From the NCBI GenBank assembly GCA_964016885.1, contig OZ024741.1:39928001-39992000 (forward strand): a stretch of DNA of 64,000 bases, read 5' to 3'. Shown in pieces: positions 605-61,166 of this stretch (its first letter is position 1; every line of letters starts with the position of its first letter). The stretch is from Eledone cirrhosa (Eukaryota). Made by a program: the position numbers and the translations under genes. The notes under the pieces are model-generated. The model made no database searches and was not told the DNA's origin. It saw only the letters and a list, made by a program, of their open reading frames with translations.

Positions 605-795
605 TAATAATTGTTTCTACTTTTGGCACAAAGCCAGCAATTATCCCAGTGTATTACTGGTACTTTATTTTATCGACCCCGTAAGGATGAAAGGCAAAGT
701 TAATCTCGGCGGGATTTGAACTTAGACTGTAAAGGGACGTAACTATGCTGGAAAGCATGGGGTCCGACCCTCTGCCAATACTGCCAATCTACCTA
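605..795 (-). mobile_element. tRNA-derived SINE with MetaSINE/MESC-like core (family S)
   Basis: Reverse complement of the recurring consensus TGGCAGTATCGG (A box)...GTTCAAATCCCGCCGAGGTTAACTTTGCCTTTCATCCTTACGGGGTCGATAAAATAAAGTACCAG...GGCCTTGTGCCAAAAGTAGAAACAATTATT; a degenerate copy follows at about 1065-1245. Confidence 0.85.
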
Positions 796-799
796 ATAA

Positions 800-1000
800 T
801 AATTTCTTTTATTTGTCACAAGGGCGCTGAACGTAGAGAACATTGAAAAGATAATATGCCGCTTAACATGAAATGTTAGTGTGGAAAAAAGGAGTATACA
901 TAGTATACATGACGATGATAATTCTCTTGATGCTGGAGAATGTCCAAATAGAGACGTTAACTGGATCCGTCCGAGATGTGACGGCTTACGGTAATTCCGT
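800..1000 (-). mobile_element. Old Tx1-like LINE 3'-end remnant
   Basis: TTTCTTTTATTTGTCACAAGGGC resembles the 3' termini of the Tx1 copies at 32140 and 35240. Confidence 0.4.
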
Positions 1001-2831: not shown

Positions 2832-3066
2832 AGGGTGGTGGATTGGCAGTATCAGTGGAGGGTCGGACGCCATGCTAGGGCGGTGGATTGGCAGTATCGG
2901 TGGAGGGTCGGACGCCATGCTTTCCACCATAGTTACGTCGCTTTATGATCTCAGTTCAAATCCCGTCGAGGTTGACTTTGCCTTTCATCCTTACGGGGTC
3001 GATAAAATAAAGTATCAGTAATGCACTGGGTAATTGATGGCCTTGTGCCTAAAATAGAAACAATTA
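2832..3066 (+). mobile_element. Family S SINE with tandemly duplicated tRNA head
   Basis: GGTGGATTGGCAGTATC...GGTCGGACGCCATGCT occurs twice, then B box GTTCAAATC and core. Confidence 0.85.
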
Positions 3067-3231
3067 TGTAAAGTAAAGCCTTTATCGTGAAAATATAATA
3101 GTATATATAGAGTAATATAAATGTTAAAGGGCTAACCAATATTCTAGATAGATGAACATGCTGCACGACCCCTTCTCTTCGCATTCGTTTTCACTGTTTT
3201 TCTTGTTGACATACACACACATACACGCACG

Positions 3232-6111: not shown

Positions 6112-6574
<463 letters not shown>

Positions 6575-6662
6575 GTAAAAAATAAACTGAAATAACAACA
6601 CAATCGGTACAGTATATGGAAGGAATATATTAGGTTAACGCTTGATATAGCAGGAAGAGGGC

Positions 6663-6696
6663 CTTAACGTTTCGGACGCTAGTCCTTCATCAGAAG
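6663..6696 (-). ncRNA. Minimal type I hammerhead ribozyme in repeat family H (6585-6790)
   Basis: ctt CTGATGA AGGAC tagc GTCC GAAAC GTT aag; family copies with the same motif at 46569-46601 and 56034-56068 (the last mutated). Confidence 0.85.
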
Positions 6697-6922
6697 AAAG
6701 AATGAGAAATAAGATAGATTGAGGGGACGGGCGAGTTGGAATTGGAAAGAATGTCTTTAGATAAAAATAATAGGTCCATTCATGTTGATATCTGTTGCAA
6801 AACTGTTGGTGCTGGCGTTTTGTGTATGATTTGTTTTTTAGAAAAGTGGATGATGGCGCGCGTCTACCTGAAATGGACAAGAAAGCGTTTTGTAAAAGAA
6901 CTATACTTGTCCACGTACGTAA

Positions 6923-10010: not shown

Positions 10011-10562
10011 TCATAAAAATGTTATAAGTGTTGAAAGTAGTAAATTAAGCCATTTGAGGTTGAGAGATCATTCTTAATAATTTAAGCAGAAATGTGGTTA
10101 ACCGAGTTACCTTATTAGAAGAATAGATGAAAAATTGTTTGTGACTTTCCGTGAGTTTATAGTCGAGAGTCCAACCTAATATCATTAATATTATTATAAA
10201 CAGGAAAATATATATTTCAACATTTTAAGAAATTAAGATTAAATAATATTCAATTAAATCCACTCCGATTTTCAATTCTTATTGTGTTGAGCGGAGATTT
10301 CCCATATAAACTTATAGCTTTTAACCCGAGCACATATTACGGATCAAGAATGATGTCATGTTGAGACATTTCATGGTTTCTTATTGATTTGAAATAGATA
10401 GATTTAAAACTACGGGTACGTAGATATGTACGTATGTATGCAAGCATATAGAGGTACATATATATACACGCATGCATGCATGTATATATGAATGTGTATA
10501 TATATATATATATTTATATACATGTATATAAATGGATATATATATATATACAAATATATATA

Positions 10563-10623
<61 letters not shown>

Positions 10624-10639
10624 ATATATGTAAGTATGT

Positions 10640-11291
10640 ATACGTACATACATATATGTATACAGACGTACATTAGTATGTATATACATACATACATGAC
10701 ACATATATATATATATGTACGTATGGGTTTACCGAACATTTATTATAATGCTCGGTTTATTTGTAAACAAACAGCCCGAATTATCAGCTGTACAGTGTTC
10801 GGCAACCATCGTTGCCCTTTTGTTCAACACTGACAAAGGAACGATGAACTAGTTTCTAGCTTATTAGCTGTCATCAGCACCGTATACCTTCCTGTCAGTT
10901 GATTGAACGTTTGAAAGTATATACTTTCCTTATGCATATTAACGGCTGAGCAGCCTAATTTGCATATCCAGTGTGTTAGTCGGCCGGGCGTACAGAAAAC
11001 GATAAATGGAAAAAATGAAATTTCATTTCTCACTCTTAGTACGGCTGATACTTAAATGTAAGTATGTATACCTACATACATACATGTATACATACATACA
11101 TTAGTATGTATATACATACATACATGCACACATATATATATGTACCAATGCGTTTACCAAACATCTACTATAATGCTCGGTTCGTTTGTAAACAAACAGC
11201 CTGAATTATTAGCCGTACAGTGTACGGCAACCATCGTTGCCCTTTTGTTCAACACTGACAAAGGAACGATGAACTAGTTTCTAGCTTATTA
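10640..11291 (-). mobile_element. Non-coding HHR-containing tandem repeat, family M (retrozyme-like), locus 1
   Basis: 425-bp direct repeat (10846 vs 11271), about 1.5 units; HHR at 10842-10882. Confidence 0.85.
10842..10882 (-). ncRNA. Type I hammerhead ribozyme (family M)
   Basis: cggtg CTGATGA c AGCT aata AGCT a GAAAC TA GTT catcg. Confidence 0.85.
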
Positions 11292-11944: not shown

Positions 11945-12243
11945 GACCCGAACAATCGTATGGATCAGTTTCAAATGGATTATCGATCGTGTAAATATAA
12001 AATGCATAGTCAACTCCGGCGGAATTAAAAATCCGAACATAAAGAGACATTATTACGTATGGCAGTATCGGAAGAGGGTCAGACGCCATGCCTTGCAGCA
12101 TATAGTTACGGCCCTTTAAGATCTGAGTTCAAACCCCGCTGAGGTTAACTTTGCCTTTCGTCCTTACGGGGTAGATAAAATAAAGTACCAGTAATACACT
12201 GGGATAATTGCTGGTCTTGTGCCAATGGTAGAAACAATTATTA
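11945..12243. mobile_element. Two oppositely oriented family S SINEs
   Basis: Degenerate minus copy at about 11945-12050; well-conserved plus copy at 12058-12243. Confidence 0.8.
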
Positions 12244-16190: not shown

Positions 16191-16352
16191 GTGTGGGGGG
16201 GGGGGGGGCAGTATTTTTCCCCCTGGTAAAATGGTGTACATTATTCGATTTTTTCAGTAAAATCGGTTCTCTTAATAGAACATCAAAAATCTTAACAATA
16301 AAAGGTGTGAAATGATATTCACTATATATATATACACATACATATATTCACT

Positions 16353-16389
<37 letters not shown>

Positions 16390-16529
16390 TACATATATAT
16401 ATGCACATATATTTTTTTGTGTTGCACCATAGAGCATGTGTGTTTACGTATGTCATTGTGTTTATATGTGGGTAGAGATGTGTGCTGATGTAGGTATGTA
16501 TGTTGACGTGTGTATGTTATGGGTTCGTC

Positions 16530-17492
16530 TTAGGGAGAAGTGTTTAGACGGGGTCCGTATTTGTTAATGAAGTAAGATTCCTTGCTGATGCGCTGGGTCT
16601 GGGTGGCATTATCTTTAAATTTGTAGAGGGGAAAGATTCTGAAGTTGGGATGATTTTGGGCGGCACAGGTATCAATGTGTTCACTCAGTGGTATTTTCCT
16701 GTATTCCCGTATTTTGATTTGGGATCTATGGACAGTCATGCGTTGGCGGAGGCTGTTTTTGGTCTGGCCTATGTATTGTTCTCGACAACCTGAACAAGTT
16801 AATACATATATTAAATTTTCCGATGCACATGTGAAATTGTGTTTTACTATAAAACGTTGTCCATCTTTGAAATAGAATTCCGAACCCTCTATTAGGTTGA
16901 TGAAAATGCCACAGTTGGGTCTATCGCATTTTTTTACTGTGGGTTTCGTTGTTGTTGTTGGCAGTACTTTGGCATGTGTTAAGATGTTTTTCATTGATTT
17001 GGATTGTCTTTTGCTCTTTATGATATCGTGTGTTCGTAGAATTTGGTTCATTCTATGGTCCTTTTTCAATACAGGGATGTTCTGGAGGATGGTGTCAAAG
17101 GCCTCATTGTTGAGGGGGTTGTGTGTGGAGATGTATGGAAGAGCTTTTAGTTTTGGTTGATTTACTTTAGGGTGTCTAAGGTCCTGGGTACTGAGTTTTA
17201 GGGCACGTTGGATTCCATTGTCAATTAGTGATGCAGGGTAGTCCCTGCCTATGAGTGTGTCCTTTAGTTCTTGTAGCCGTAAGTAGCAGATGTTTTTATT
17301 GGAGACTATAGTACAGATTCTCTTGGCTAAGTTGTAGGGAATATTAATTTGAACGTGTCTAGGGTGGCAAGAGTTGAAGGGGAGATATTGCTTGGAGTCT
17401 GTGGGCTTGTAGTATATGTCTGTTTCTATTTTTTTGTTATGGATCTTAATGAGGATGTCGAGGAAGGGGAGTTGTTGATGGCTGTATTCCAT
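16530..17492 (-). CDS. PLE RT thumb + GIY-YIG endonuclease
   Basis: 320-aa ORF: LPFLD, SCHP, Cys linker, LIY...YIGQT, ends PRLN. Confidence 0.9.
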   Translation of the reverse strand: MEYSHQQLPFLDILIKIHNKKIETDIYYKPTDSKQYLPFNSCHPRHVQINIPYNLAKRICTIVSNKNICYLRLQELKDTLIGRDYPASLIDNGIQRALKLSTQDLRHPKVNQPKLKALPYISTHNPLNNEAFDTILQNIPVLKKDHRMNQILRTHDIIKSKRQSKSMKNILTHAKVLPTTTTKPTVKKCDRPNCGIFINLIEGSEFYFKDGQRFIVKHNFTCASENLIYVLTCSGCREQYIGQTKNSLRQRMTVHRSQIKIREYRKIPLSEHIDTCAAQNHPNFRIFPLYKFKDNATQTQRISKESYFINKYGPRLNTSP

Positions 17493-17564
17493 CGTGAAGT
17501 TAATATTTGTGTTGAGCCCATTTATAAGGGTGTGAAATTCTTTAAGTGTTTCGATGTTTTCGTG

Positions 17565-18677
17565 TCAAAGGATGAAGCAGTCATCTAGATATCGCTTCCA
17601 GTTCCTTTCAATGTGTAAGTGGAGGGTGTTTCCAAATTTGTTTAGGACTTTAGTGTGGAGGGTGATTTCCAGGTATCCCATGACTAGGTTGGCATAAGTG
17701 GGGGCTGTTTTCGTTCCCATAGCGGTCCCAGATTTCTGCCTGTAGGGTTTGTTATTGAAAACGAAGTAATTGTTCTCCAAGATAAATTTGAGTCCCTCTA
17801 TCACGAATTCTTTTTTGATGCGTTGTGGGAGTTCATTGTGGAAATTATCCAGCCAGAATTGGATAGCTTCTATTCCTAGGTTGTGGGGGATGTTGGAGTA
17901 TAGGTTGACTACATCGAACGTCACTAGTAGGGTTTGTTCAGAAAGTGGCATATTAGGGAGGTGATTGAGCATATCTAGGTCGTCCCTTATATAGCTTTTG
18001 ATGTGCTTGAGGAAGGGCTTGAGAAGGGTATCAATGAAGTTGCTAAGACGGTGCGTTTCGCAAGCGGGGCCTGCTATTATAGGTCTTAATTTGAGATCAT
18101 TGGGTGAGGGGACATTGATGACTATGTCTGTGGCTTCCTTGCATGCCTTACTTATTGATTCGCTTTTATGTACTTTAGGGATACCGTAGAAAAGGCTGGA
18201 TTTACTTGTGAAGTCTGTGATGAAGCTGAATTCCTTGTTAGTGAGTCCTTCTTTATATTGGTTGATTAGAGTTTTTAGGTTTCTCATAATTTTCTGTTGA
18301 TTGTAGTGTTCAGCCTTTTCGTAGTATGTTTCGTTTTCCAAAGTGGAGAGCGCTAAGTTGATATAGAATTCTGTCTCCATTAGGACTACTCTACTCCCTT
18401 TATCAGCCTCTTTAATTGTAATGGTTCTGTCGGTTTTTAATCTATTTAATTCTTCCCATTCTTTCTTGTTGAGGTTTGGCTTGTGTTTTTGTCTGTGCAA
18501 GTGTTGGTAAGGGAAGTTTGTGATGTGTTCACAGAATTCGTCCAGGATTTTATTTCTACCTTTTGAAGGGGTGTAATTGCTTCTATTTCTGGCTAATGAT
18601 TCATCCTCATTGTACTGGTCGAATAGTTGTTCACTAAGTCGTAACTTTCTACAGAAGTCTGTGATGTCTTCCTTCAT
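17565..18677 (-). CDS. PLE reverse transcriptase (N-terminal part)
   Basis: 370-aa ORF with PLE RT motifs through RYLDD. Confidence 0.9.
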   Translation of the reverse strand: MKEDITDFCRKLRLSEQLFDQYNEDESLARNRSNYTPSKGRNKILDEFCEHITNFPYQHLHRQKHKPNLNKKEWEELNRLKTDRTITIKEADKGSRVVLMETEFYINLALSTLENETYYEKAEHYNQQKIMRNLKTLINQYKEGLTNKEFSFITDFTSKSSLFYGIPKVHKSESISKACKEATDIVINVPSPNDLKLRPIIAGPACETHRLSNFIDTLLKPFLKHIKSYIRDDLDMLNHLPNMPLSEQTLLVTFDVVNLYSNIPHNLGIEAIQFWLDNFHNELPQRIKKEFVIEGLKFILENNYFVFNNKPYRQKSGTAMGTKTAPTYANLVMGYLEITLHTKVLNKFGNTLHLHIERNWKRYLDDCFIL

Positions 18678-19060
18678 TTCATAGTAGTTAGGACGTAGTG
18701 GGGTCGGTGTGAATTTAAGACCTTTGGAGAGTAAGTTGATAAGGTTGGGTGTTGGTTCTGCACTAGTAAGATTGATAACTTTTATTACTATCGGTTTCTC
18801 CTCCCTGTCTTGTGTTATTTTGTTTGCCTGTATCTGTGTGCTGTGTCTAAAAAATGGTTGGGGTAGAGGGGTTGTTTGCTGATGTTAAGTGGTCTCCTGT
18901 GTTTGTTATATTCCTTGTTGTTGTAAAATGTGGTTCGGGTTGGTGGTTGTAGATTGAATGGGGTGTTCCTGTACTGCGAGTATGGGTGTGTGTTTCTATG
19001 TGCCATGTTGTATTGTGGTGTTATAATATATATATATAAACGGTGTTATAATATATATAT

Positions 19061-19637
19061 ATAAACGGAAAAAATGAAACGAAATTTCATTTCCCACTCT
19101 TAGTACGGCTGTTACTTAAATATAAGTATGTACACGTACATACATATATGTATACAGGCGTACAGTAGTATGTATATATATATACATACATGCACACATA
19201 TATATATGTATGTATGGATTCACCGAACATTTATTATAATGCTCGGTGTGTTTGTAAACACACATCCCGTATTAAGCCGTAGTGTCCAGCAACCATCGTT
19301 GCTCGTTTGTTCAACACTGACAAAGGAACGCTGTACTAGTTTCAAGCTTATTAGCTATCGTCAGCAACGTATACCTTCCTGCCAGATTGTTGAACGTATG
19401 CATATTAACGGCTGAGTAGCCCAATTTGCATATTGAGTGGGTTAATCGGCCGGGTGCACCGAAAACGATAAACGGAAAAAATGAAACGAAATTTCATTTC
19501 CCACTCTTAGTACACCGAGCATTATAATAAATGTTCTGTGAATCCATACGTACATATATATATATATGTGTGCATGTATGTATATGTATATACATACTAC
19601 TGTACGTCTGTATACATATATGTATGTACGTGTACAG
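19061..19637 (-). mobile_element. Family M locus 2: 407-bp unit + terminal direct repeat + inverted segment
   Basis: ATAAACGGAAAAAATGAAACGAAATTTCATTTC at 19061 and 19468; 19513-19637 is an inverted copy of about 19125-19248; intact HHR at 19329-19369. Confidence 0.88.
19329..19369 (-). ncRNA. Intact type I hammerhead ribozyme (family M)
   Basis: cgttg CTGACGA t AGCT aata AGCT t GAAAC TA GTA cagcg; all conserved core bases present. Confidence 0.88.
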
Positions 19638-19877: not shown

Positions 19878-20063
19878 AATCGCTGCTTTCACCCTTAACG
19901 GGATCTTCTGAAGATCCCGTTAAGGGTGAAAGCAGTGATTCTTTGCTTAAACTCTAATCTGTTATTTTAATAAATATTTGCTCTACGGTTCTTATATATT
20001 TGATATATATTTATCCTTATCGAGCCCTCTTTGGATTTTAGTCTTCAAATTTATTATTATTAC
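19878..20063 (+). repeat. PLE-like 3' end with a short fold-back centred on an HHR core (family P)
   Basis: 31-bp arms about T19909; CTGAAGA t CCC gtta aGGG t GAAAG; minus-strand family copies at 46172-46330 and 51020-51105. Confidence 0.85.
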
Positions 20064-22043: not shown

Positions 22044-22292
22044 ATCCCGGGTTCAATCGGGGTAACCACAGCAAGTAAGGTACTCAATACAAAGCAGAAT
22101 ATAAATATTTAATATAGAAAGCCTTCTACAGGACTAGAGTTGTTTCATTCGGGAGAGATCATCAGAAAGCCCTGATGATTTCACCCGAATGAAACAGTTC
22201 TAGTCCTGTAGAAGCCATTTCTATATTAAATATTTATACTCTTTTATGTATTGAGTACCTTACTTGCTGTGGTTACCCCGATTGAACCCGGG

Positions 22293-23609: not shown

Positions 23610-24922
23610 ATCAGAGATCTAGCAGTATTTGTTTGAGTTCTTTATGTTCTCTCTTCAAATCCAGTCGAGGTTCTCTTGGTTTTTCATCTTTCCAAAGTCG
23701 AAAAATATAATTGTTTCTACTTTTGGCACAAGGCCAGAAATTACGCCAGTTTATTACTGGTACTTTATTTTATCGACCCCGTAAGGATGAAAAGCAAAGT
23801 TAACTTCGGCGGGTTTTTAACTAAGATCATAAAGGGCCATAACTCTATGCTGCAAAGCATGGCCTCCGACCCTCTACCGATGCTGTCAATATAATACCAA
23901 GCTATTATTGGGGGTGATTCTTCTTGTAGCTTTCTCATTGGTATTAATAGCAGAAGCACTAAGGGCGGTGAATTGGCAGTATTGGTAGAGGGCTGGACAC
24001 CATGCTTTGCAGCATAGAGTTACGATCCTTTACGTTCTGAGTTCAAATACCGCCCAGGTTAACTTTGCTTTTCATCCTTACGTGGTCGATTAAATAAAGT
24101 ACCAGTAATGCACTGCGGTAATTATTGGCCTTGTGCCAAAATCAGAAAGAATCATTAATTTTCTCCTAAAGGGCGGTGGATTAGTAGTATTGGTAGAGCT
24201 TCGGACAATCGATTTAATCGACTTTCTCCTCCCACAAAATTACTGGCCTTGTGCCTATACTAGAAATCATTAATAAGTAGTAGCACTAACACAGCGTGAT
24301 TCAGAATAGAAGAGTATACGAAAGTATATATAATAAACATACATAAATCTCGCTCTGTTTCTTTAACTAATTCAGTAGACGTGTGAAAAAGCTAAATACT
24401 AGAATTTCAAGATCTTTATCCATTTTCAGGGTCACGTTATTTATATGCCTTTATATTCTGCTTCACGCTGCGTTAGTATTAGTGCGAATTAATACTATCA
24501 CGAGAAGCCTGCACTATATGCAAATAAGCATGCAAAATCTATCAGCTAATGTTGTCTAGGTATTGAGGGAGTAAACTGAAGTAAATAGAGATGGATAAAA
24601 CTCTTGAAATACTTGTGGTCTGGCGCTCTCGCGAGATCACTGACGTAGCTGAGACATGGTCACACATTGAAATACCCCCAACGAGAAAATGAATGTTTAT
24701 TATAATTAAACATAGGGCGGTGGGTTGGCAGTATCAGTAGATGGTCGGACGCCATGTTTTGCAGCATAGAGTTACGGCCCTTCAAATGCCGCCGAGGTTA
24801 ACTTTGCCTTTCATCCTTACGGGGTCGATAAAATAAAGTACCACTCATGCACTGGGGTCGATTTAATCGACTTTCTCCACCCGACAAAAATTGCTGGCCT
24901 TGTGCCTATATAAGAAACCATT
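23610..24922. mobile_element. Cluster of family S SINEs
   Basis: About 23610-23707(+), 23708-23890(-), 23960-24155(+), 24168-24275(+, internally deleted), 24712-24922(+). Confidence 0.82.
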
Positions 24923-25678: not shown

Positions 25679-25943
25679 CAAGTAACAAATCCTCCATTCC
25701 CATTATGCCAAACCCATGACTTCCAAATATCTGATCCACCGAAACTCAGCTGTTTCAGATCACACCAAAATCAACATACTGATTGCGGATTTGGTACGGG
25801 TGATGAGAAACGTGTCCCGCATGTGCAGCCCCAAAGAACTAGAGAGACACATACAACACTTCATCCACCGTATGCAGTTCTCTGGTTAATATCAGAGAGA
25901 TAAAATCAGAGTATATAGAGGAGCCAGAACCAAATGGGAAAAA

Positions 25944-26606
25944 ATGTTAAATAATGATATAAATGGGACCTGCCCCTTGTATAGGAGCAAATTTTGGAAT
26001 AGAATAGAAAGAACTAGGAATAAGGTTAATAGAATAAACTCATGGTATGATAGCAATAAATACCAGAGTGTAATGTTCACCAATACAACCCCTAGAGGTG
26101 AATTAGCTTTCAAATTTAGAAGGGCCCTAGATAAATTTAAACTTAATATTAACATAGTAGAAAGACCAGGTACCTCCATAAAAACACTTATTAGCAATAC
26201 ATACCCTTTTCAAAGACCTCCCTGTATAGATGAGAAATGCATAATCTGTAAACTAATCCCCCATATTAACTGTAACGCTAGAAATGCAGTATATAGCATA
26301 AGATGTACTGAAGGACAATGCAAAGATAAGAATATAGTGTACATAGGTGAGACAGCTCGTAGTATAGGAGAACGGTTAAATGAACACTGGCGAGAGCTTC
26401 AAGATAAAAAAGAATCATCAATACTCCACCAACATGCTAAAATAGAACATAAGGGCAGATTAGAGAACATAGAAATAAAAATAGAATCTACACACAGAAA
26501 AGACGCAATGTTTAGACAAATCACAGAGGCAATAAACATAAATGAACTCCAACCAAAATTAAATAGAAAACATGAATGGAATAGCAACATCACAACTTAC
26601 AATTAA
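25944..26606 (+). CDS. PLE GIY-YIG endonuclease (C-terminal fragment)
   Basis: 220-aa ORF with VY...YIGET, R..EH, H..H, E, LN motifs. Confidence 0.88.
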   Translation: MLNNDINGTCPLYRSKFWNRIERTRNKVNRINSWYDSNKYQSVMFTNTTPRGELAFKFRRALDKFKLNINIVERPGTSIKTLISNTYPFQRPPCIDEKCIICKLIPHINCNARNAVYSIRCTEGQCKDKNIVYIGETARSIGERLNEHWRELQDKKESSILHQHAKIEHKGRLENIEIKIESTHRKDAMFRQITEAININELQPKLNRKHEWNSNITTYN

Positions 26607-30747: not shown

Positions 30748-31895
30748 GATAATAGTTTTTGATTTAGGCACAAGGCCAACAATTTGTGGGGTGATTAAAT
30801 CGAGGCCAGTGCGTTTCTGGTACTTTATTTTATTGACCCTGAAATGATGAAAGGCAAAGCTAACCTTGGTGGGATTTGAACTCAGAATGTAATGTGCCGT
30901 GACTAAAGGCAAAGCATGTTGTCCGAAGCACTACATATACTGCCAACAAGAGGTATTAATAATTGTTTCTAGTATAGGCACAAGGCCAGCAATTACCCAG
31001 TGCATTACTGGTACTTTATTTTATCGACCCCGTAAGGATGAAAGGCAGCAAAGTTAACCTCGGCGGAATTTGAACTCAGAATGGCAAGGGGCGTAACTCC
31101 ATGCGTCAAAGCATGACGTCCGACGTATTATTAATGATTTCTAGTATAGGCACAACACCAGTAAATCGACTCAAGTGTGTGACTGGTAATTTATTTTATC
31201 GACCCCGTAAGGATGGAAGGCAAAGTTAACCTCGGCGGGATTTGAACTCAGACCGTAAAGAATCGTAACTCTATGCTGCAAAGCATGGCGTCTAATTCCA
31301 CCGATACTGCCAATTCACCGCCCTAAAGGAGGTATTAATAATGATTTATGCCAATTCACCGCCCTAAAGGAGGTATTAATAATGATTTATGCCAATTCAC
31401 CGCCCTAAAGGAGGTATTAATAATGATTTATGCCAATTCACCGCCCTAAAGGAGGTATTAATAATGATTTATGCCAATTCACCGCCCTAAAGGAGGTATT
31501 AATAATGATTTATGCCAATTCACCGCCCTAAAGGAGGTATTAATAATGATTTATGCCAATTCACCGCCCTAAAGGAGGTATTAATAATGGTTTATGCCAA
31601 TTCACCGCCCTAAAGGAGGTATTAATAATGGTTTATGGCAATCCACCGCCCTAAAGGAGGTATTAATAATGGTTTATGCCAATCCACCGCCCTAAAGGAG
31701 GTATTAATAATGGTTTATGCCAATCCACCGCCCTAAAGGAGGTATTAATAATAATTTAGTCACAAGGGCCAAGAATTTGAGGGGAGGGCAATGTGGATTA
31801 AATCGACCCCAGTGTATTACAGTTGCTTTATTTCGTCAGACTTGTAAGGATGAAAGGCAAAGCTGACCTCAGTGGGATTTGAACACAGAACAATA
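30748..31895 (-). mobile_element. Head-to-tail stack of four family S SINEs
   Basis: About 30748-30950, 30957-31130, 31130-31325, 31755-31895; GAGGTATTAATAAT repeated at about 30950 and 31329 (TSD-like). Confidence 0.85.
31309..31752. repeat. 41-bp minisatellite, about 11 units, derived from a SINE junction
   Basis: Unit GCCAATTCACCGCCCTAAAGGAGGTATTAATAATGATTTAT. Confidence 0.95.
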
Positions 31896-32137: not shown

Positions 32138-35100
32138 TAATTTTCTTTTTATTTGCCACCAGGGCATCAAAGAGTGAGACAAGTACAATGGGGCGAGTTT
32201 ACATTACAAGGCGTCCTCAATAAGGAGGAAAAGTGTGCAACCCTTCTCCTCAGGAGCACAGAGAAGGGGTGCTCCCTTGGTCTTTCCTCTTTCTCACCTA
32301 TAGTCTGATGTAGAGTGAAGGCCCATTCACACGGGCCATTCTCGCCACTTTCACCCACCTTTCATAAAAACGACTGGGGTGCAGCACCTCTCTCTCCATC
32401 CTGATCCTTCTTCCGAAATGATATCGGAAGAAACGGACCAGTTGTTGGCCAGAGAGAAAGGTGTCTGACCTCAGTCCTTTCAGACGCGTCCACCATACAA
32501 CCTCTTTCGCCATGGCTATTACGCACAGAAACACCGCCTCTCCTTCGTTTTTGAAGAGGGGAGGCGGCTTGATCGTTATAATAGACTCGGTGGTCAACCG
32601 GATCGGTCCCACCCTTGATAGCAGTTGTTCGACATAGCCCCACAGATCGGCAATGCCCCAGCAGTGTACCAATGCGTGTGCAACGGTTTCCTCGTCGCAC
32701 ACGCATCTGGGACAGATCTTTTTCGAGGAATCCCTACCCGGGCGCCCGTGTCTGTAGAGCTTTTCTCGAACGGGCTGAGCCCTTCTGTAGCACTGCCAGG
32801 CCAGGGACCTCTGGAAGTTATCCATGGGTCCCGGGCTGCATGTCCTACCGAACAGGTTGGCCAGTTCGTCTTCCTCCATGCCTAGGGCTTCTCCGAGGGC
32901 GTCGTCGCACCTGCTAACCACCAGCCCCCTATAGAATGACGAGGTGGATTCTCCACTGACAGCCGGGTCCGCCTGCCAGAGAGCCGTGAGAGCCTGGGCA
33001 CACTCGGTGTGCCAGGCGCCCAGTTTTCTCGGTCTTTGCTTGACACAGGATTGCAGCTCGGTGAGTGAGACAAGTCTGGGAAAGGCTCGCCTCACAAACG
33101 GGGCCCACACCGGTTGACCGGTGAGGAATACCTGGAGGTGCCGTAGCCTTAATGCGTCTACGTATCATTAGCCACGACATCCCCAGCCCTCCTTTCGAAG
33201 GGTGTTGACAGCAGATGGATCTCCACACCATAGGAGCCCGCTTCTTCCAAAGGAATTGGAAGAGTGCGCGCTCCATTTTGGCGAGCGTTTCCCTTGGGCA
33301 AGGCACAACGATCAGGCGGTAGTAGATGACGGACGCTATATAAGTGTTCGCCACCTCCGCCCGACCTTTCAGGGACAGTTTGCACTCGGCCCACTTCTGG
33401 GTCAGTGCAAACACCCTGTTCGTTACCTCACCCCAGTTCTTCTCCACCTGGAATTCTGGTCCAAACCAGACCCGAGCAACTTCACCGGGCCCTCCGTCCA
33501 GCGCCCGACGACGCCATCGGAGGGTATTGATCTGCCCCTCCACGTGCCGAGTTGCAGACCGATCGACTTCTCCCGGTTCAGCTTAGCCCCTGTAAACCTT
33601 TCGTACTCCTCCAGTAAGGTGCCGATCGCCCCGATTTCCGAGGCCGTCGACACCATTACTGTTACGTCGTCGGCGTAGGCCGACACCGCTTTGCGCAATC
33701 CCGGTTCCAATGGGATGCCCTGCAACAACTCCAACTTCCGCAGCAGTGGCTCTAGAGTCATTACATACAGAATGGAGGAGAGAGGGCACCCTTGTCGGAT
33801 GGACCGCGCGATTTCGAACGGCTCCGAGAGGTAGCCGTTCACCTTGACCCTAGAGCAGATGCGGCTGCTGTGCATGGCATTGATCCAGCCCCTGAAAAGG
33901 GGTCCGAAGCCTGCCGCCGCTAGCACCGCATCCAGGTAACCATGGTCAACCCTATCGAACGCCTTAGATTGATCCAAGTTGATCAGGGCCCCACCAAAGC
34001 CGGGTTCGTTCCCAACCCTCTCTATGATGTATCGCATGAGGTGGAGGTTGTCGTGGATGGACCTGGACGGGATAGCACATGTCTGCGCATCTCCCACCAG
34101 GTTGCCCACGACAAGCGCCAACCTCTTTGCTAGCACCTTGGCCAAAATCTGTAACTCTGTATTTAGCAGAGTTATGGGCCTGAAATTATTTATATCGTCC
34201 CCCTTGTTCTCGTCCTTCCTCACTAGCGTGACTACGCCCTTGGTCACAGTACAGGGAATTCTCCCGTTCTGTTGCCAGTTGCAGTAGACCGCCTCGAGGA
34301 GATCGGGGAACAAGTTCGGCATAGCTAGATATAGTTCGTATGGAAGACCATCGAGACCCGGGGATTTGCGTTTGCCGCATTGGCTCAGCACGTCCTCTAT
34401 CTCAGCGGCTGAAATCGGCTCCTCGCAGGACTTCGCCTCCCTGTCCGAGAGACGCGGCAGGCCGTCGAGGTATGGACCGAAGTCCACATCCCCAACCAGC
34501 TCTCCGCCCCTTCCGAACAATCCGACAAAGTGCTTTTGAAAAGCCTCGCACATCTGCTTAGGTTCAAGGATCACCCGTCCATCCTGGTCTCGCAAAGACC
34601 GGATAGTGGATCTGCTCCTTCTTTTGGCTTCTGTCACGCGGGCCCAGCTAACAGCTTTGGTCCCCTCGTTTCCCAGAGCACGTATTTTGCTTCGGACGAT
34701 GCAGCCTTCGTGTTTCGCGTCGAAGAACTGGCCCAGGGCCGTTCTCGACGCTAGCACTCTGGCCACGTCGCCGCTTCTAATTGCCTCTTCTATACTATCT
34801 ACCAACTCCCTTTCCTTCCTATTTCTATTTGAGGCTAACTCCTTACTAAATTCTATAGAGACTACTCTAATCTCTGTTTTGAGAGATCCCCACCACCTGC
34901 TGTTGACGATGGTGCCCGTCAACCGCTCCTTAACTAAAGTGCTAATCCGGTCCCTGTAAGCCTTACTTGCCGGTAAGGACAAGTTGAGCTTCCAGTAACC
35001 GGGTCCCTGTCTATGCGTTCTGTCAAGGTTGACCATGCAGGTCACTAACTTGTGGTCTGAATAGCCAACCATGCGCATTATTGGACAACTTAAAAAGTCC

Positions 35101-35152
35101 TTATCCTTAATTCTAACTAAGAACCTATCTACGTACGACCTAGATGATCCAC
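32138..35152 (-). mobile_element. Tx1/L1-clade LINE copy 1, 5'-truncated and frameshifted
   Basis: SYVDRF, SDH, GYWKLN, KSPGLDG, NFRPITLLN, DQSKAFD, RQGCPLS, YADD, CPRC...H; AATAAA at the 3' end. Confidence 0.95.
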
Positions 35153-35234
<82 letters not shown>

Positions 35235-35238
35235 GATA
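35153..35238. repeat. (GATA)n microsatellite separating Tx1 copies
   Basis: Seen directly; also at 37098-37111, 42904-42966, 43142-43180, 44621-44688, 44818-44937. Confidence 0.97.
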
Positions 35239-37096
35239 ACTTTCTTTTTATTTGCCACCAGGGCATCAAAAGTGGGACAAGTACAATCGGGGGAGTTTAC
35301 ATAACAAGGTGTCCTCAATAAGGAGGAGGCAATAAAGTATAAAAATAAAATACAATATAACAAAATAAATTTTATAATAAAATCCTCCATAGGGAGGAGG
35401 CGCCTTGGGAGGTCGCACACACCCCCGAAAAAAAAGTGTGCAACCCTTCTCCTCAGGAGCACAGAGAGGGGGTGCTCCCTTGATCTTTCCTCTTCCTCAC
35501 CTATAGTCTGATGTAGAGTGAAGGCCCATTCACCCGGGCCATTCTCGCCACTTTTACCCATCTTTCATAAAAACGGCTGGGGTGCAGCACCTCTCTCTCC
35601 ATCCTGATCCTTCTTCCGAAATGATATCGGAAGAAACGGACCAGTTGTTGGCCAGAGAGAAAGGTGTCTGACCTCAGTCCTTTCAGACGCGTCCACCATG
35701 CAACCTCTTTCGCGATGGCTATTACGCACAAAAACACCGCCTCTCCTTCGTTTTTGAAGAGGGGGGGGCGGCTTGATCGTTACTATAGACTCGGTGGTCA
35801 ACCGGATCGGTCCCACCCTTGACAGCAGTTGTTCGACATAGCCCCACAGATCGGCAATGCCCGAGCAGTGTACCAATGCGTGTGCAACGGTTTCCTCGTC
35901 GCACACGCATCTGGGACAGATCTTTTTCGAGGGGTCCCTAACCGGGCGCCCGTGTCTGTAGAGCCTTTCTCAAACGGGCAGAGCTCTTCGGTAGCACTGC
36001 CTGGCCAGGGACCTCTGGAAGTTATCCATGGGTCCCGGGCTGAATGTCCTACCGAACAGGTTGGCCAGTTCGTCTTCCTCCATGCCTAGGGCTTCTCCGA
36101 GGGCGTCGTCGCACCTGCTAACCACCAGCCCTCTATAGAATGACGAGGTGGATTCTCCACTGACAGCCGGGTCCGCCTGCCAGAGAGCCGTGAGCGCCTG
36201 GGCACACTCGGTGTGCCAGGCGCCCAGTTTTCTCGATCTTTGCTTGACCCAGGATTGCAGCTCGGTGAGTGAGACGAGTCTGGGAAAGGCTCGCCTCACA
36301 AACGGGGCCCACACCGGTTGACCGATGAGGAATACCTGGAGGTGCCGTAGCTTTAATACGTGTACGTATCATTAGCCACGACATCCCCAGCTCTCCTTTT
36401 GAAGGGTGTTGACAGCAGATGGATCTCCTCACTATAGGAGCCCGCTTCTTCCAAAGGAATTGGAAGAGTGCGCGCTCCATTTTGGCGAGCGTTTCCCTTG
36501 GGCAAGGCACAACGGTCAGGCGGTAGTAGATGACGGACGCTATATAAGTGTTCGCCACCTCCGCCCGACCTTTCAGGGACAGTTTGCACTCGGCCCACTT
36601 CTGGGTCAGTGCAAACACCCTGTTCGTTACCTCACCCCAGTTCTTCTCCACCTGGAGGTCTGGTTCGAACCAGACCCCGAGCAACTTCACCTGGCCCTCC
36701 GTCCAGCGCCCGACGACGCCATCGGAGGGCATCGATCTGCCCCTCCACGTGCCGAGTTGCAGACCGATCGACTTGTCCCGGTTCAGCTTAGCCCCTGTAA
36801 ACCTTTCGTACTCCTCCAGTAAGGTGCCGATCGCCCCGATTTCCGAGGCCGTCGACACCATTACTGTTACGTCGTCGGCGTAGGCCGACACCGCTTTGCG
36901 CAATCCCGGTTCCAACGGGATGCCCTGCAACAACTCCAACTTCCGCAGCAGTAGCTCTAGAGTCATTACATACAGAAGGGAGGAGAGAGGGCATCCTTGT
37001 CGGTTGGACCGCGCGATTTCGAACGGCTCCGAGAGGTAGCCGTTCACCTTGACCCTAGAGCAGATGCGGCTGCTGTGCATGGCATTGATCCAGCTC
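35239..37096 (-). mobile_element. Tx1/L1-clade LINE copy 2, 5'-truncated
   Basis: Closely similar to copy 1; RT from RQGCPLS/YADD to the CCHC finger and 3' UTR. Confidence 0.95.
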
Positions 37097-37328
37097 CTAG
37101 ATAAATAGATATATTTCTTTATTTACCATAAAGGCATAAAAAGAAGGGACAAATACAAAGGGGGAGTTTACATACAATCGAGTAAAAAGGGTGTAACATG
37201 AAAATAATCTAAAATAACCTCAATAGGGAGGGGACGTGATGGGGGTTGCACACACCCCCGAAAAAGTGTGCAATCCTTTGCCCGGGGAGCACATGGAGAA
37301 GGTGCTCCCCTCTCCTTTACTTCTTTAC

Positions 37329-40300
37329 CTACAGGATGGTATATAGAGAAGGCCCATTTACACGAGCCATTCTCGCCACTATCACCCACCGTTCATAAAA
37401 CTGCCTGTGGCCAAGCACCTCTCTCTCCATTCTTATCCTTCTTCCGAAGTGATATCGGAAGAAGTAGACCAGACTATGGCCAGAGAGGAAGTTGCCTGAC
37501 CTCAGACCTTTCAATCGTGTCCACCAAACAACCTCTTTCAACATGGCTATTACGCACAGAAAAACCGCCTTTGCTTCCTTTGTGAAGAGGGGAGGCGGTT
37601 TGATTGTCATCACGAACTCGGCGGTCAATTGAATCGGCGCCACCCGCGACAGCAGTCGTTCGGCGTAGCACCACAGATCAGCCACGCCCGGACATTGCAC
37701 CAATGCGTGCGCAACGGTTTCTTCGTGACGCACGCATCTAGGGCAAATCTTTTTTGAGGGATCCCTGCCCGGGCGCCCGTGTCTGTAGAGCCTCTCTCGA
37801 ACGGGTAGAGCCCCCCGGTAGCACTGCCAGGCCAGTGACTTCTGGAAGTTGTCCATTGGTCCTGGGCCGAAAGTCCTACCGAACAGGCTGGCCAGTTCGT
37901 CTTCTTCCATGTCCAGCGACTCTCCAAGGGTGTCATCGCCCCTGCTAGCCACCAGCCCTCTATAGAATGATGAGGTGGATTCTCCACCGATGGCCTGGCC
38001 CGCTTGCCAGACAGCCCTGAGCGCCTGAGCACACTCAGTGTGCCAGTCTCCCAGTTTTCCGGATCTTTGCTTGAACAGGACTGTAGCTCGGTGAGCGAGA
38101 CGAGTCTCGGAAAGGCTCGTTTCACGAACGGAGCCCACACCGGTTGATCAGTGAGGAATACCTGTAGGTGCAGTAGCCTTAATGCGTGCCTACGCATCAT
38201 CAACCACGGCATCCCCAGCCCCCCTTTCGAAGGTTGTTGGTAGCAGATGGATCTTCTCACCATAGGAGGGCGCTTCTTCCAAAGAAATTGGAAGTGCATG
38301 CGTTCCATGGTGATGAGTGTTTCCTTAGGGCAAGGCACGACAGTCAGGCGGTAGTAAGTGACGGACGCTATGTAAACGTTCGCCACCTCCGCCCGGCCTT
38401 TTAGGGACAGCTTACACTTGGCCCATTTCTGGGTTAGTGCAAACACCTTGTTCGTAACCTCGTTCCAGTTCTTTTCCACCTGGAGGTCCGGTCCAAACCA
38501 GACCCCAAGCAACTTTACCGGGCCCTCCGTCCAGTGTCCGACGACACCGTCGGGAGGCATCGGTCTGCCTCTCCACGTTCCGAGTTGCAGCCCGATGGAT
38601 TTTTCCCGGTTCAGTTTCGCTCCTGACAACCTTTCGTAATCCTCCAGTAAGGTACCGATCGCCTCGAACTCCGAGTCGGTCGATACCATTACTGTTACGC
38701 CATCGGCGAAGGCCGACACCGCTTTGCTCAATCCTGGTTCCAGGGGGATACCCTGCAACAACTCCAACTTCCTCAGTAAAGGCTCGAGAGTCAATACGTA
38801 CAGAAGGGAGGAGAGAGGGCATCCTTGTCGAATGGATCGTGTGATTTCGAACGGCTTCGAAAGGTAGCCGTTCACCTTGATCCTAGAACAGATGTGGTTG
38901 CTATGTAAGGCAGTGATCCAGCCTCTGAAAACAGGACCGAACCCAGCCGCCGCTAGCACCGCATCCAGGTAACCATGGTCGACCCTATTGAAGGCCTTAG
39001 ACTGATCCAAGTTGATCAGGGACCCACCGAAGCCGGGTTTGTTTCCAACACTCTCTATGATGTATCGCATGAGGTGGAGGTTATCGTGAATGGACCTGGA
39101 TGGGATAGCACATGTCTGCGCATCTCCCACCAGGCCACCCACGACAAGCGCCAACCTCTTTGCTAACACCTTGACCAAAATCTTTAACTCTGTGTTTAGC
39201 AAGGTTATGGGCCGAAAATTATTTATACTATCTCCCTTGTTCTCGTCCTTCTTCACCAGCCCTTGGCTACAGAACAAGGAATTCTCCCGTTCTGCTGCCA
39301 ATTGCAGTAGACCGCTTCGAGGAGTTCGGAGAAGAAGACCGGCATTGCTAAATAAAGTTCGTAAGGTATACCATCGAGACCTGGAGATTTGCGTCTGCTG
39401 CATTGGCTCAGCGCATCTCCGATCTCATCAGCCGAGATTGGTCCCTCGCAGGACTCTGCCTCTTCGCTCGAGAGACGCGGCAGGCCGTCGAGGTATGGAC
39501 CGAAATCCACGCCCCCGCCCGGACCCTCGCCTCCCCCGAACAATCGGGCAAAGTGCCTTTGAAAGGCCTCGCACATCTGCTTAGGCTCCCGTATCACCCG
39601 TCCATCTTCGTCTTGCAACGACCGGATGGTGGATCGATTTCCACTCTTAGCTTCTGTCACGCGGGCCCAGCCAACGGCTTTGGCCCCCTCATTACCTAGA
39701 GCACGTATTTTACTTCGAATGACGCAGCCTTCGTGCTTTGCATCGAAAAACTGGTTCAAGGCCGTCCTCGATGCCAGCACTCTGGCCACATCTTCGCTCT
39801 TGATTGCCTCTTCTAATTTACCTGTTAATTCTTTCTCGTTTCTATTCCTATCGGCAGCTAACATCTTGCTATAACTTATTGATTCTGTTCTAATCTCTCT
39901 TTTGAGAGATGCCCACCATCGGTTGTTGACGATTGCACCCGTCAACCTCTCCTTAACTAATCTGCTAATCCGGTTTCTGTAAGTCTCTTTTCCCGGTAAA
40001 GACAAATTAAGTTTCCAGTAACCGGGACCCTGTTTATGTGTTTTCTCGAGATTGACTACGCAGGTCACTAATTTGTGATCCGTGTAGCCAACCGTGCGCA
40101 TTTCTGGACAGCTTAATATGTCCCTATCCTTACTTCTAACTAAGAATCTATCTAAGTACGATCTAGATTGACCACTGTGGTTTCTCCAAGTCCAGGTAGG
40201 CACAGTTGGAAAATCTAGTCGATATCTATCGACCAAGTTAAAACGGTTGAGTAACCCCTTGAGGCTGTTACACCCCTCTCTATTAGGACATGCTCCTGCA

Positions 40301-40756
40301 TAGTCCCAACGTGCATCTAGGATGTCATTCCAATCCCCCGCTAGAAGCAGGGAACGCGACGTTCCCAGAAAAGTCTCCAAACGCTGGAAGAAGTCGGGCC
40401 GTTCAGCTCCGAAAGGGGAGTAGACGGCGACCAGTCTCAAGGCCGCACTTTCACTACTGCCAACGTCTAGCACCAACAAACGACCCTCCGGGTCCGAGTG
40501 CACAACCTGTACGGCAAGACCCAGGTGTTTTTGCAGCAGTACGACAACCCCACCCCCCACCTCCAGGTTGACAGAGAGATGCATGCACCTCAAAGTCATC
40601 GAAGGTGGGGGCCAGCTGCCGCACGACGCTGATTCGAGTCTCACAGATAACCATTACATTTATACCACATGACCTGAGGTCATTTAGAAGCTTTGCTTGC
40701 TTCCAAGTTGAGCCCAGGCCACGTCCATTCAAACATCCTACTCTTAACACATCCAT
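37329..40756 (-). pseudogene. Tx1 ORF2 (APE endonuclease + RT + C-terminal zinc finger), three frameshifts
   Basis: MDVLRVGCLNGRGL...CET; VYSP, GDWN, YLDRF, TDH; RT motifs with FADG in place of YADD; split over four ORFs. Confidence 0.92.
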
Positions 40757-40816
40757 GTGGGCGGCAGAGCCAAAGGAGAGTGTAGAGACCTACCTTTCCG
40801 CTTCCAGGGGTTCGGG

Positions 40817-42727: not shown

Positions 42728-42910
42728 AATTTTTTAAAACAGGTTTTTCACCTCTAGGAAGGGTAAAGATGAGCTGACCCACCGCCTGACAGTCGTATCA
42801 AAATTAAATTTGAACTCACAAAATTTCCGCAATAAATTTGAACAAAACTTCTGCGTGAAGTGAATTACATCCACACTGTAGAACAGACGACAGCTAGATC
42901 TTCTAGATAA

Positions 42911-48029: not shown

Positions 48030-48032
<3 letters not shown>

Positions 48033-48740
48033 GGAAAAGAATGAAACGAAATTTCATTTCTCACTCTTAGTACGGCTGATACCTAAATATAAGTATGTAT
48101 ACGTACATACATATATACACATATATGGTGTATATATGGCGTATATATGGCGTACAGTAGTATGTATATGTATATATATATATGCACACACATATATATA
48201 TATATACGTATGTGTTTACCGAACATTTATTATAATGTTCGGTTTGTTTGTAAACAGACAGCCCGAATTATGCCGTACAGTGCTCGGCAAACATCGTCGC
48301 CCTTTTGTTCAACACTGACACAGGAACTATGTACTAGTTTCAAGCTTATTACCTATCGCCAGCATCGTATACCTTTCTGTCAGAATGTTTGAACGTTTGA
48401 AAGTATATACTTTCTTTATGCATATTAACGGCTGAGCAGCCTAGTTAGTCGGCCGGGCGTACCGAAAACGATAAATGAAAAGAATGAAACGAAATTTCAT
48501 TTCTCACTCTTAGTATGGCAAATTATACATCGTTCCTGTGTCAGTGTTGAACAAAAGGGCGACGATATTTGCCGAGAACTGTACGGCGTAATACAGGCTG
48601 TTTGTTTACAAACAAACCGAACATTATAATAAATGTTCGCTAAACCCATACGTACATATATATATATATGTGTGCATGTATATGTATATATATACATACT
48701 ACTGTACGTCTGTATACATATATGTATGTACATACACATA
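48030..48740 (-). mobile_element. Family M locus 3: 443-bp unit + terminal repeat + inverted segment
   Basis: ATGAAACGAAATTTCATTTCTCACTCTTAGTA at 48041 and 48484; about 48527-48740 inverted; mutated HHR at 48327-48367. Confidence 0.88.
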
Positions 48741-48759
48741 CTTATATATATATATATAT

Positions 48760-55871: not shown

Positions 55872-55948
<77 letters not shown>

Positions 55949-56164
55949 AAAAGGTAAACAGAAATAAAAACAGACTCGATACAGTATATGGAAGGACTAT
56001 TTTAGTTTAACGCTTGAAATAGCAGGAAGAGGGCCTTGATGTTTTGGACGCTAGTCCTTCATCAGAAGAAAGTATGAGAAATAAGATAGATTGAAGGGAT
56101 GGGCAGGACGAAATTGGAAAAAATGTTTTCAGAGAAAAATAACTGGTCCATACACGTTGCCACC

Positions 56165-61136: not shown

Positions 61137-61166
61137 TTATTATTATTATTATTATTATTGTTATTA

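What the first reader, a model, noticed from the sequence alone, without database searches (positions are those of the whole stretch)
10640..11291. Family M: candidate retrozyme with a 425-nt cleavage-site-to-cleavage-site monomer
Seen: a non-coding 425-bp direct repeat with an HHR on the minus strand. Predicted cleavage falls at 10847/10846 and the homologous site at 11272/11271; the second HHR is cut off at 11291 within stem II. Known: metazoan non-LTR retrozymes are tandem repeats of a few hundred bp with type I HHRs that yield small circular RNAs, proposed to be mobilised by PLEs. Inference: a cephalopod retrozyme family that may be undescribed.
Basis: partly seen in the sequence, partly recalled or inferred. 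Interest (0 to 1): 0.8.

Follow-up and report, generated by a model that had tools for sequence, protein, structure and literature searches.

The report
Penelope-spread hammerhead repeat in an octopod
This is one and a half copies of an abundant, non-coding 425-base repeat with a hammerhead-ribozyme motif, likely pasted around a probably octopod genome by the enzymes of Penelope-type jumping genes; it is likely a new family of a known kind (retrozyme-like), and no circular RNA from it has been shown.

Summary
A minus-strand type I hammerhead motif has its predicted cut at 10847/10846, with a half copy 425 nt away (11272/11271). But the locus (10625-11291) is 1.57 units with only one complete, core-adjacent-mutated ribozyme, so it likely does not release the 425-nt monomer. 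Two more insertions lie in the window (19061-19636, 48031-48752). They show Penelope-type (PLE) anatomy: two fixed 3' ends 51-59 nt apart (a tail), a head-to-head inverted arm, and (TA)n flanks. Four RAD-read junctions fall at the same spot as both window junctions. In 13 of 16 informative columns, the two repeats of one insertion share private variants, so each insertion was likely copied from a single-unit RNA, either a circle or a terminally redundant linear RNA. A near-complete PLE ORF abuts one copy but shares no sequence with the family. No RNA run was listed and no genome is held, so circles, cleavage and tandem arrays are untested. Verdict: a new, likely octopod member of a known kind (non-autonomous PLE / non-LTR retrozyme-like). 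The scan held no look-alike sequence; a similar inverted-arm reading was noted for a shark window.

The parts
10625..11291 (-). Insertion A: 1.57 tandem units of the ~425-bp repeat; 3' end (RNA sense) at the proximal site with no tail; 5' end 20 nt upstream of the upstream cut site
10830..10898 (-). Complete type I hammerhead motif (extended helix I with bulge, 4-bp helix II, 1-bp helix III with palindromic tetraloop); predicted cut 10847/10846; C.A at the base of helix II, U17
   Evidence: constrained fold -20.7 vs free fold -23.2 kcal/mol
11255..11291 (-). 3' half of a second hammerhead (half of helix II, GAAA, helix III, cut site 11272/11271, 3' strand of helix I); no core
10847..11271 (-). 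Cut-site-to-cut-site unit, 425 nt; predicted circular fold -130.2 kcal/mol, z -5.9, 0 of 60 shuffles as low
11002..11052 (-). Internal copy of the tail segment (two adjacent predicted hairpins in copies B and C) lying between the two fixed 3' ends of the family
10497..10624 (.). (TA)n-rich tract at the 3' end of insertion A, likely the target site
19061..19513 (-). Insertion B, direct arm: one unit plus ~45 nt of terminal redundancy, ending with the tail (51-59 nt); complete hammerhead 19317-19385, predicted cut 19334/19333
19512..19636 (+). Insertion B, inverted head-to-head arm (starts 85 nt downstream of the cut site; its 3' end is cut off by a tRNA-like SINE)
48031..48519 (-). Insertion C, direct arm with tail (~56 nt); hammerhead core mutated (A6 changed; helices I and II each broken once)
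48526..48752 (+). Insertion C, inverted arm: begins within 2 nt of the cut site, ends at the proximal site in (TA)n
16533..18884 (-). Context: near-complete PLE ORF (RT + C-terminal GIY-YIG, one in-frame stop near 17565) just downstream of insertion B; candidate type of helper, no shared sequence with the family

Best explanation
The locus is 1.57 copies of a non-coding ~425-bp repeat with one complete type I hammerhead motif, and it is likely a Penelope-made, probably inactive insertion of an abundant retrozyme-like family that was likely copied from a single-unit RNA, predicted to be a circle. Proposed cycle, inferred: (1) a source copy is transcribed on the strand that carries the ribozyme. 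(2) Where two complete ribozymes lie in tandem, they would cut as a double hammerhead (helix III is one pair plus a palindromic loop), and the monomer would be ligated. (3) A PLE reverse transcriptase/GIY-YIG protein nicks (TA)n DNA and primes cDNA inside the RNA at one of two sites 51-59 nt apart, at two adjacent hairpins. (4) One priming that runs past a full turn gives direct tandems such as A. Priming from both target strands, one at each site, gives the head-to-head form of B and C: an arm with the tail and an inverted arm without it. Shown: sequence anatomy, fixed ends, fixed inversion junction, shared private variants, abundance in DNA runs. Inferred: transcription, cleavage, circle, helper identity. 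My split for the template: re-ligated circle 0.45, linear one-unit RNA with redundant ends 0.3, uncut linear dimer from homogenised sources 0.15, other 0.1.
For: Fixed 3' ends: A (10625) and the inverted arm of C (48752) end at one unit position; the direct arms of B (19061) and C (48031) end 51-59 nt further on. Both positions are at adjacent predicted hairpins. This matches the PLE tail and inverted 5'-truncated copy (PMC8557442 passages; PMC3846280 passages) and the two internal RT start sites with both target strands extended (PMC11167929 main text). The inversion junction lies at unit position 19106 (B) and 19109 (C). Among the 15 of 278 joints shown, 5 are opposite-strand: 4 at 19106-19109 (run X23, 44-78 reads, 1-2 starts each) and 1 at 19129 (X1). 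13 of 16 informative columns join the two repeats of one insertion; about 3.5 expected, P about 6e-7 if columns are independent. Canonical helix sizes as defined in PMC4209133. The one-pair helix III with palindromic tetraloop and the U.U under helix II are as described for the two axolotl retrozyme ribozymes. Circular folds z -5.9, -7.8, -4.9. Summed contig depth in X1 is 0.68-1.34 million on the family bins against 9-128 thousand on the PLE ORF (not a copy number). In X4 (another organism) the ribozyme bin (41,921) stands well above both neighbours (3,471; 11,127).
Against: 0 of 3 window insertions has two complete ribozymes, and short reads cannot show arrays. Only 1 of the 3 window 5' ends (C inverted arm) lies at the cut site; the other two are at -20 and +85, and read-derived inverted arms start at -15, -15, -22, -42 and -66 (a size-biased sample), so the template was usually not a cut linear monomer. 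The fixed junction at 19106-19109 is explained more simply by a fixed RNA 5' end or by twin priming on a linear RNA than by a circle. The tail (51-59 nt) is longer than the 30-40 nt reported for PLEs. Shared variants could also come from gene conversion after insertion. No Rfam hammerhead match; covariation not significant. TA-rich hairpins inflate the fold z-scores. In the cited preprint only 1 of 9 predicted Xenopus dimers cleaved in vitro, and in PAc cleavage was not needed for insertion. Insertion A has (TA)n on one side only and no target duplication was seen.
Confidence: 0.68

Rival explanations
1. A mini-Penelope with a passenger ribozyme: the same PLE helper, but the template is a linear RNA of one unit plus ~45 nt of redundant ends, starting at unit position 19106-19109. 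Its single ribozyme stays uncut; tandems such as A arise by a template jump between the redundant ends. No circular RNA is needed.
For: The direct arms of B and C are exactly this length and start at this position, as do 4 of 5 opposite-strand joints shown. Arms read through the cut site. Ribozyme mutants did not affect PAc insertion in vitro.
Against: The ribozyme has canonical helices rather than the minimal PLE form. It appears to be the best-kept part in another organism (X4 depth). The whole unit folds like retrozyme circles. One X1 joint at 19129 runs past the supposed 5' end.
Confidence: 0.3
2. The repeat is only the pseudo-LTR of a coding PLE, either the one at 16533-18884 or one not in the window, and the copies are truncated stubs.
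For: Insertion B lies ~50-180 nt upstream of a PLE ORF in the same orientation. PLE copies are mostly 5'-truncated, so depth in excess of the ORF is expected. Retrozymes and pLTRs are related.
Against: In 3 of 3 insertions the sequence upstream of the ribozyme leads back to the tail, not to an ORF. No blastn hit between the unit and 16200-19060. No family sequence after the ORF's stop. Depth falls from 6,361 to 3 in X23 across 19009/19010, and is 2,765 in X1 just inside the PLE (the 19010-19113 bin is inflated by (TA)n). None of the 15 joints shown links the ORF end to the family (263 not shown). Two contigs leave the reference at 19025/19026 with 127 and 145 other letters.
Confidence: 0.12
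3. Locus A itself is an active retrozyme that releases a 425-nt monomer: its complete core cuts the upstream half-site in a double-hammerhead fold and also cuts its own site.
For: The upstream half keeps the palindromic helix III, the cut site and the 3' strand of helix I, so pairing with the downstream core is possible on paper. The active-like fold costs only 2.5 kcal/mol.
Against: Only one core is present. It has C.A under helix II and U17. The two repeats are 7.5% diverged, i.e. an old insertion. No promoter or RNA is shown.
Confidence: 0.08
4. A DNA-level repeat (local duplication, satellite or MITE-like element) with a chance or fossil hammerhead-like motif.
For: No Rfam hammerhead hit; the unit is rich in TA palindromes; no RNA data.
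Against: The descriptor gives 2 hits vs 0.00 in shuffles. Copies are dispersed, with fixed 3' ends, variable 5' ends and PLE-type inverted arms. G.U pairs fit the minus-strand RNA.
Confidence: 0.04

Closest known systems
Metazoan non-LTR retrozymes (Cervera and de la Pena 2020, PMC7229834; results and discussion read, supplement unreadable), especially mussel ~350-390 bp and axolotl 330/350 bp families
   Same: Non-coding, GC <50%, unit of a few hundred bp, canonical type I hammerhead with weak helix III, highly self-paired predicted monomer, coexists with PLEs
   Different: Here 3 dispersed insertions of 1.1-1.6 units, none with two complete ribozymes; PLE tail and inverted arms, which the sections I read do not report for retrozymes; circles untested; cephalopods not mentioned in the main text
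Vertebrate non-LTR retrozymes as PLE derivatives (Li, Clavereau, Pollet 2026, bioRxiv 10.64898/2026.07.22.740005; parts 1-3 of 5 read, supplements closed)
   Same: Retrozyme units of 51-972 bp related to pLTRs; many dispersed monomer copies
   Different: Their evidence is co-occurrence and pLTR homology in vertebrates, with no mollusc sampled; here the evidence is insertion anatomy, and no parent pLTR was found
EN+ Penelope-like elements with pLTR, tail and inverted 5' copy (PMC8557442, PMC3846280 passages; PMC11167929 main text)
   Same: Two fixed 3' ends with the tail on one arm only, head-to-head inverted arm, AT-rich/microsatellite targets, ribozyme in the repeat
   Different: No ORF; canonical rather than minimal ribozyme; tail 51-59 nt versus 30-40 nt
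Non-autonomous Chlamys elements such as MRC1 (PMC8557442 passage)
   Same: Non-coding PLE derivatives that form pLTRs and head-to-tail insertions
   Different: Green alga; most Chlamys lack canonical hammerheads

Membership tests
Non-LTR retrozyme | Canonical type I hammerhead (helix I 6 bp, helix II 4 bp, helix III 1-2 bp with palindromic loop) | tested here: met
   Copies A and B; definition from PMC4209133. No Rfam model match.
Non-LTR retrozyme | Non-coding unit of about 150-450 bp, GC below 50% | tested here: met
   407-450 bp, GC 36.7%, longest ATG ORF 37/46 aa
Non-LTR retrozyme | Tandem of at least two units, each with a complete ribozyme - at this locus | tested here: not met
   A has one complete and one half ribozyme; 0 of 3 window insertions qualify
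Non-LTR retrozyme | Such tandems elsewhere in the genome (family level) | not testable with these tools
   No genome held; short reads and contig pieces cannot span two ribozymes
Non-LTR retrozyme | Highly self-paired predicted monomer circle | tested here: met
   z -5.9, -7.8, -4.9; 0 of 60 shuffles as low in each; TA hairpins contribute
Non-LTR retrozyme | Self-cleavage and expression as linear and circular monomer RNA | not testable with these tools
   Needs bench work or RNA reads
PLE-mobilised non-autonomous element | Two fixed 3' ends with a tail on one arm | tested here: met
   2 + 2 window ends; length 51-59 nt, above the reported 30-40 nt; read-based check confounded by a restriction site
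PLE-mobilised non-autonomous element | Head-to-head inverted 5'-truncated arm | tested here: met
   2 of 3 window insertions; 5 opposite-strand joints among the 15 of 278 shown
PLE-mobilised non-autonomous element | AT-rich or microsatellite targets | tested here: met
   (TA)n at 4 of the 4 intact 3' ends; B's inverted arm is cut by a SINE
PLE-mobilised non-autonomous element | Sequence shared with the pLTR of an autonomous partner | tested here: inconclusive
   No match to the adjacent PLE region; other PLE families in the genome could not be searched
pLTR of the adjacent coding PLE (16533-18884) | The same repeat on both sides of the ORF, and multi-copy linkage to it | tested here: not met
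   Absent after the stop codon; depth collapses at the junction; no linking joint among those shown

The most novel reading that the evidence does not exclude
A very high-copy octopod retrozyme family whose insertions record the missing step of the retrozyme cycle: a Penelope enzyme priming at two internal hairpins on a ribozyme-made RNA circle, running past one turn to make tandems or priming from both DNA strands to make inverted arms. It would tie animal retrozyme circles to PLE machinery by footprint rather than by co-occurrence, and would let circle versus linear template be decided by counting insertion ends in one assembly.
Probability: 0.3. Interest if true: 0.65.

Novelty: new member of a known kind. 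Interest (0 to 1): 0.42.

Why it matters
Which retroelement copies animal retrozymes, and whether the circle is the template, is still open: a 2020 review says their repeats show no motif that points to the helper (PMC7761336 passage), and the 2026 preprint argues for PLEs from co-occurrence and pLTR homology in vertebrates. This family carries the PLE tail and inverted-arm signature on a non-coding unit with a canonical hammerhead, and the two repeats of each insertion share private variants. With probably very many copies, end positions and within-insertion identity across one assembly would test circle against linear template directly. As a family it is an expected extension to cephalopods, not a new kind of system.

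Tried and rejected
Whole-genome search: no genome held. Exact-pattern scans of the ribozyme centre in metagenome, prokaryote and viral contigs: 0 matches each. Sequencing runs: no RNA holder listed; this is no evidence on expression. Rfam: only sub-threshold miRNA-type matches to TA hairpins, rejected. Rejected artefact: 3,932 + 5,270 reads with mixed loose ends at 19082/19083 in run X23 first looked like a 37-38-nt tail end. X23 is a RAD library whose reads end at AATT sites, one lies at 19083, and the same mixed loose ends (1,479 reads) occur at an AATT inside the PLE ORF (18229-18232), so they are likely ligation chimeras and were dropped. The starts of inverted arms in X23 are size-biased and were not used to argue for clustering. 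The go-back joint 19471 to 19077 only joins spacer to tail and shows no array. The flanks of A hold no coding remnant: best tblastn E 0.28 with 120 PLE relatives; a 12-bp match to the PLE 3' UTR has E 0.27. Rejected: A as the inverted arm of a larger insertion (no family sequence on the plus strand after 11291). No target-site duplication found; the 25-bp duplication at 19017-19068 lies on one side of B only. PLE clade not tested by a tree; its linker resembles the Neptune-type cysteine motif only in part. Literature search was uninformative (swamped by one term). The scan's earlier notes had no look-alike sequence and nothing on this genome.

Full report
Observation. The minus strand carries a type I hammerhead motif: helix I 10883-10878 with 10846-10841, extended past a bulge to 10898/10830; core 10877-10871; helix II 10869-10858; GAAA; a one-pair helix III closed by a palindromic tetraloop; predicted cut 10847/10846. 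The second copy keeps only the 3' half, stops at 11291, and has its site at 11272/11271, 425 nt away. The repeated part is 10625-10866 against 11053-11291 (242 columns, 90.9%), so the element is 10625-11291, 1.57 units. A descriptor with a 6-bp helix I finds 2 sites in the window, both of this family, against 0.00 per 64 kb in 100 shuffles. Rfam has no hammerhead match, at gathering score or among the 81 and 69 matches at E<=10, and covariation among 5 copies is not significant (26 of 500 shuffles). The ribozyme call therefore rests on motif plus fold. Helix sizes fit the canonical metazoan type (PMC4209133, part 1 of 4 read), not the minimal PLE type. The weak helix III and the U.U under helix II in copies B and C match the descriptions of the two axolotl retrozyme ribozymes, which cleave better as dimers (PMC7229834). 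Copy A has C.A there and U at position 17, which from established hammerhead biochemistry (recalled) lowers activity. Copy C has a mutated core.

The family. Two further insertions lie at 19061-19636 (B) and 48031-48752 (C), 88-97% identical to other copies outside gaps. In RNA sense there are two fixed 3' ends. A and the inverted arm of C end at a proximal site, in the loop of a predicted hairpin, and run into (TA)n. The direct arms of B and C end 51-59 nt further on, at the foot of the next hairpin, again in (TA)n-like sequence. B and C each consist of one unit plus ~45 nt, joined head to head to an inverted, 5'-truncated arm. This is the tail and inverted-copy anatomy described for PLEs (PMC8557442 passages; PMC3846280 passages). 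In vitro, a Poseidon PLE starts reverse transcription at two internal sites that bound the tail, cuts AT-rich DNA and extends both strands (PMC11167929, parts 1-2 of 4). The tail here is longer than the 30-40 nt reported.

One template per insertion. Outside the variable TA tract, 16 alignment columns have a variant shared by exactly two copies; 13 join the two repeats of one insertion (5 in C, 4 in A, 4 in B) and 3 do not. About 3.5 are expected, P about 6e-7 if columns are independent. So both repeats of an insertion likely came from one unit sequence, and the three insertions from three different sources. Gene conversion after insertion is not excluded. The inverted arm of C ends at the proximal site without the tail, which fits a second priming event better than fold-back copying of the first strand (inference).

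Read evidence (DNA only). Of 24 runs listed, none was on record as RNA. I laid 4 of them on 16410-19513, which holds B's direct arm and the neighbouring PLE, at 80% likeness. In X1 the summed contig depth is 0.68-1.34 million on the five family bins against 9-128 thousand on the ORF; the tool warns this is no copy number, but it agrees with 3 insertions in 64 kb. Of 278 joints, 15 are shown. Five are opposite-strand: four in X23 at 19106-19109, the same unit positions as the junctions of B (19106) and C (19109), and one in X1 at 19129. Their inverted arms start 15-66 nt upstream of the cut site, a size-biased sample. In the window the 5' ends are at -20 (A), within 2 nt of the cut (C) and +85 (B). 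The template therefore usually ran through an intact or re-ligated ribozyme junction. Loose ends point to diverged subfamilies (23,502 and 10,975 reads in X23). In X4, a different organism, the ribozyme bin is the deepest of the family bins (41,921 against 3,471 and 11,127 beside it). I dropped an apparent tail-end pile at 19082/19083 as a RAD ligation artefact at an AATT site.

The neighbouring PLE. A minus-strand ORF at 16533-18884 has RT (PF00078, E 1e-6) and GIY-YIG (PF01541, E 7e-7) matches, both on partial frames split by one stop. Its nearest named relatives are from Argonauta hians (55%) and Octopus vulgaris (62% over 53% of the query); a Crassostrea protein is at 48%, and most of the 120 listed have no name. 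This supports an octopod host without proving it. B sits just upstream in the same orientation, but the unit has no blastn match in 16200-19060, nothing of the family follows the stop codon, depth collapses at the junction (3 against 6,361 in X23), and two contigs leave the reference at 19025/19026 with 127 and 145 other letters. B is likely an insertion into a TA tract at the PLE's 5' end. This PLE is a candidate helper only by type and position.

Mechanism. Best reading (0.68): a non-coding hammerhead repeat moved by a PLE enzyme that primes at two internal hairpins on a single-unit RNA. For the template I put a re-ligated circle at 0.45, a linear one-unit RNA with redundant ends at 0.3, an uncut dimer at 0.15 and other at 0.1. 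For the circle: canonical ribozyme, self-paired unit (z -5.9, -7.8, -4.9), arms that read through the cut site, and the 1.57-turn copy A. Against it: the fixed junction, no two-ribozyme tandem among the 3 insertions, cleavage in only 1 of 9 predicted Xenopus dimers, and ribozyme-independent insertion by PAc. Locus A itself is likely a dead end (0.08 that it releases the monomer).

Known versus new. It works like a non-LTR retrozyme or non-autonomous PLE. At this locus it fails the two-complete-ribozymes criterion, and expression is untested, so I file it as retrozyme-like and PLE-mobilised, not as a proven retrozyme. Searches for retrozyme with octopus (2 listed), octopus with hammerhead and ribozyme (7 listed), hammerhead/cephalopod/Penelope (20 of 67 listed), twin priming/Penelope/pLTR (15 listed, none with twin priming and pLTR together) and non-autonomous PLE or non-LTR retrozyme (9 listed) showed no description of such a family; most of these I saw only as listings. 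The giant squid genome paper counts 235 Rfam hammerhead-1 hits without further analysis in the passage I saw. PMC5680766 and PMC7761336 (passages) do not mention octopus. The supplement of PMC7229834, one file of PMC4209133 and the preprint's tables could not be read, and Repbase and Dfam were not available; the family may be listed there. An earlier scan note on a shark window (e1-7858806) reached a similar inverted-arm reading; it is not independent support.

Verdict.

Noticed in passing
window 16533-19017, minus strand: Near-complete PLE (RT + GIY-YIG) whose one in-frame stop is private to this copy among the reads laid; depth falls from 3' to 5' as for truncated insertions, yet only ~120 nt of 3' UTR and no ribozyme or pLTR precede the (TA)n tract. 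Contigs of run X5 match it at about 98-99%.
   Followed up: partly
window 25689-26603 and 26797, plus strand: Second, distant PLE remnant (GIY-YIG E 2e-4) followed ~200 nt later by a hammerhead-like motif; a similar motif lies at 60022 (minus).
   Followed up: partly
window 6693, 46598, 55855, 56065, 50570, minus strand: Another repeat family (6503-6787, 46482-46679, 55875-56159) with short-helix, minimal hammerhead-like motifs, likely PLE pLTR stubs; 6693 passes the descriptor with a 4-bp helix I.
   Followed up: no
window 19884-19933 and 22130-22200: Near-perfect palindromes centred on hammerhead-core words; the first belongs to a repeat that recurs at 46150-46330 (94%). They may be stump-sized inverted PLE-end insertions.
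   Followed up: no
window 32229-42733, minus strand: GC-richer non-LTR retrotransposon (APE endonuclease + RT, a 638-aa upstream frame without Pfam match) with large partial tandem duplications (32229-35153 vs 37262-40176, 83%; 32229-33893 vs 35432-37098, 97%).
   Followed up: no
window 60622-63855, minus strand: Non-LTR RT element (PF00078 E 3e-24) in several long frames.
   Followed up: no
window 605-800, 2877-3067, 12049-12243, 23707-24159, 30806-31324 and others: Abundant ~190-bp SINE-like family; a 41-bp minisatellite of 11 copies at 31308-31758 adjoins one cluster.
   Followed up: no
run X4, loose end at 19309: In another organism the hairpin just 3' of the ribozyme appears with two pairs changed on both sides (79 contigs, agreement only 0.57).
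   Followed up: no
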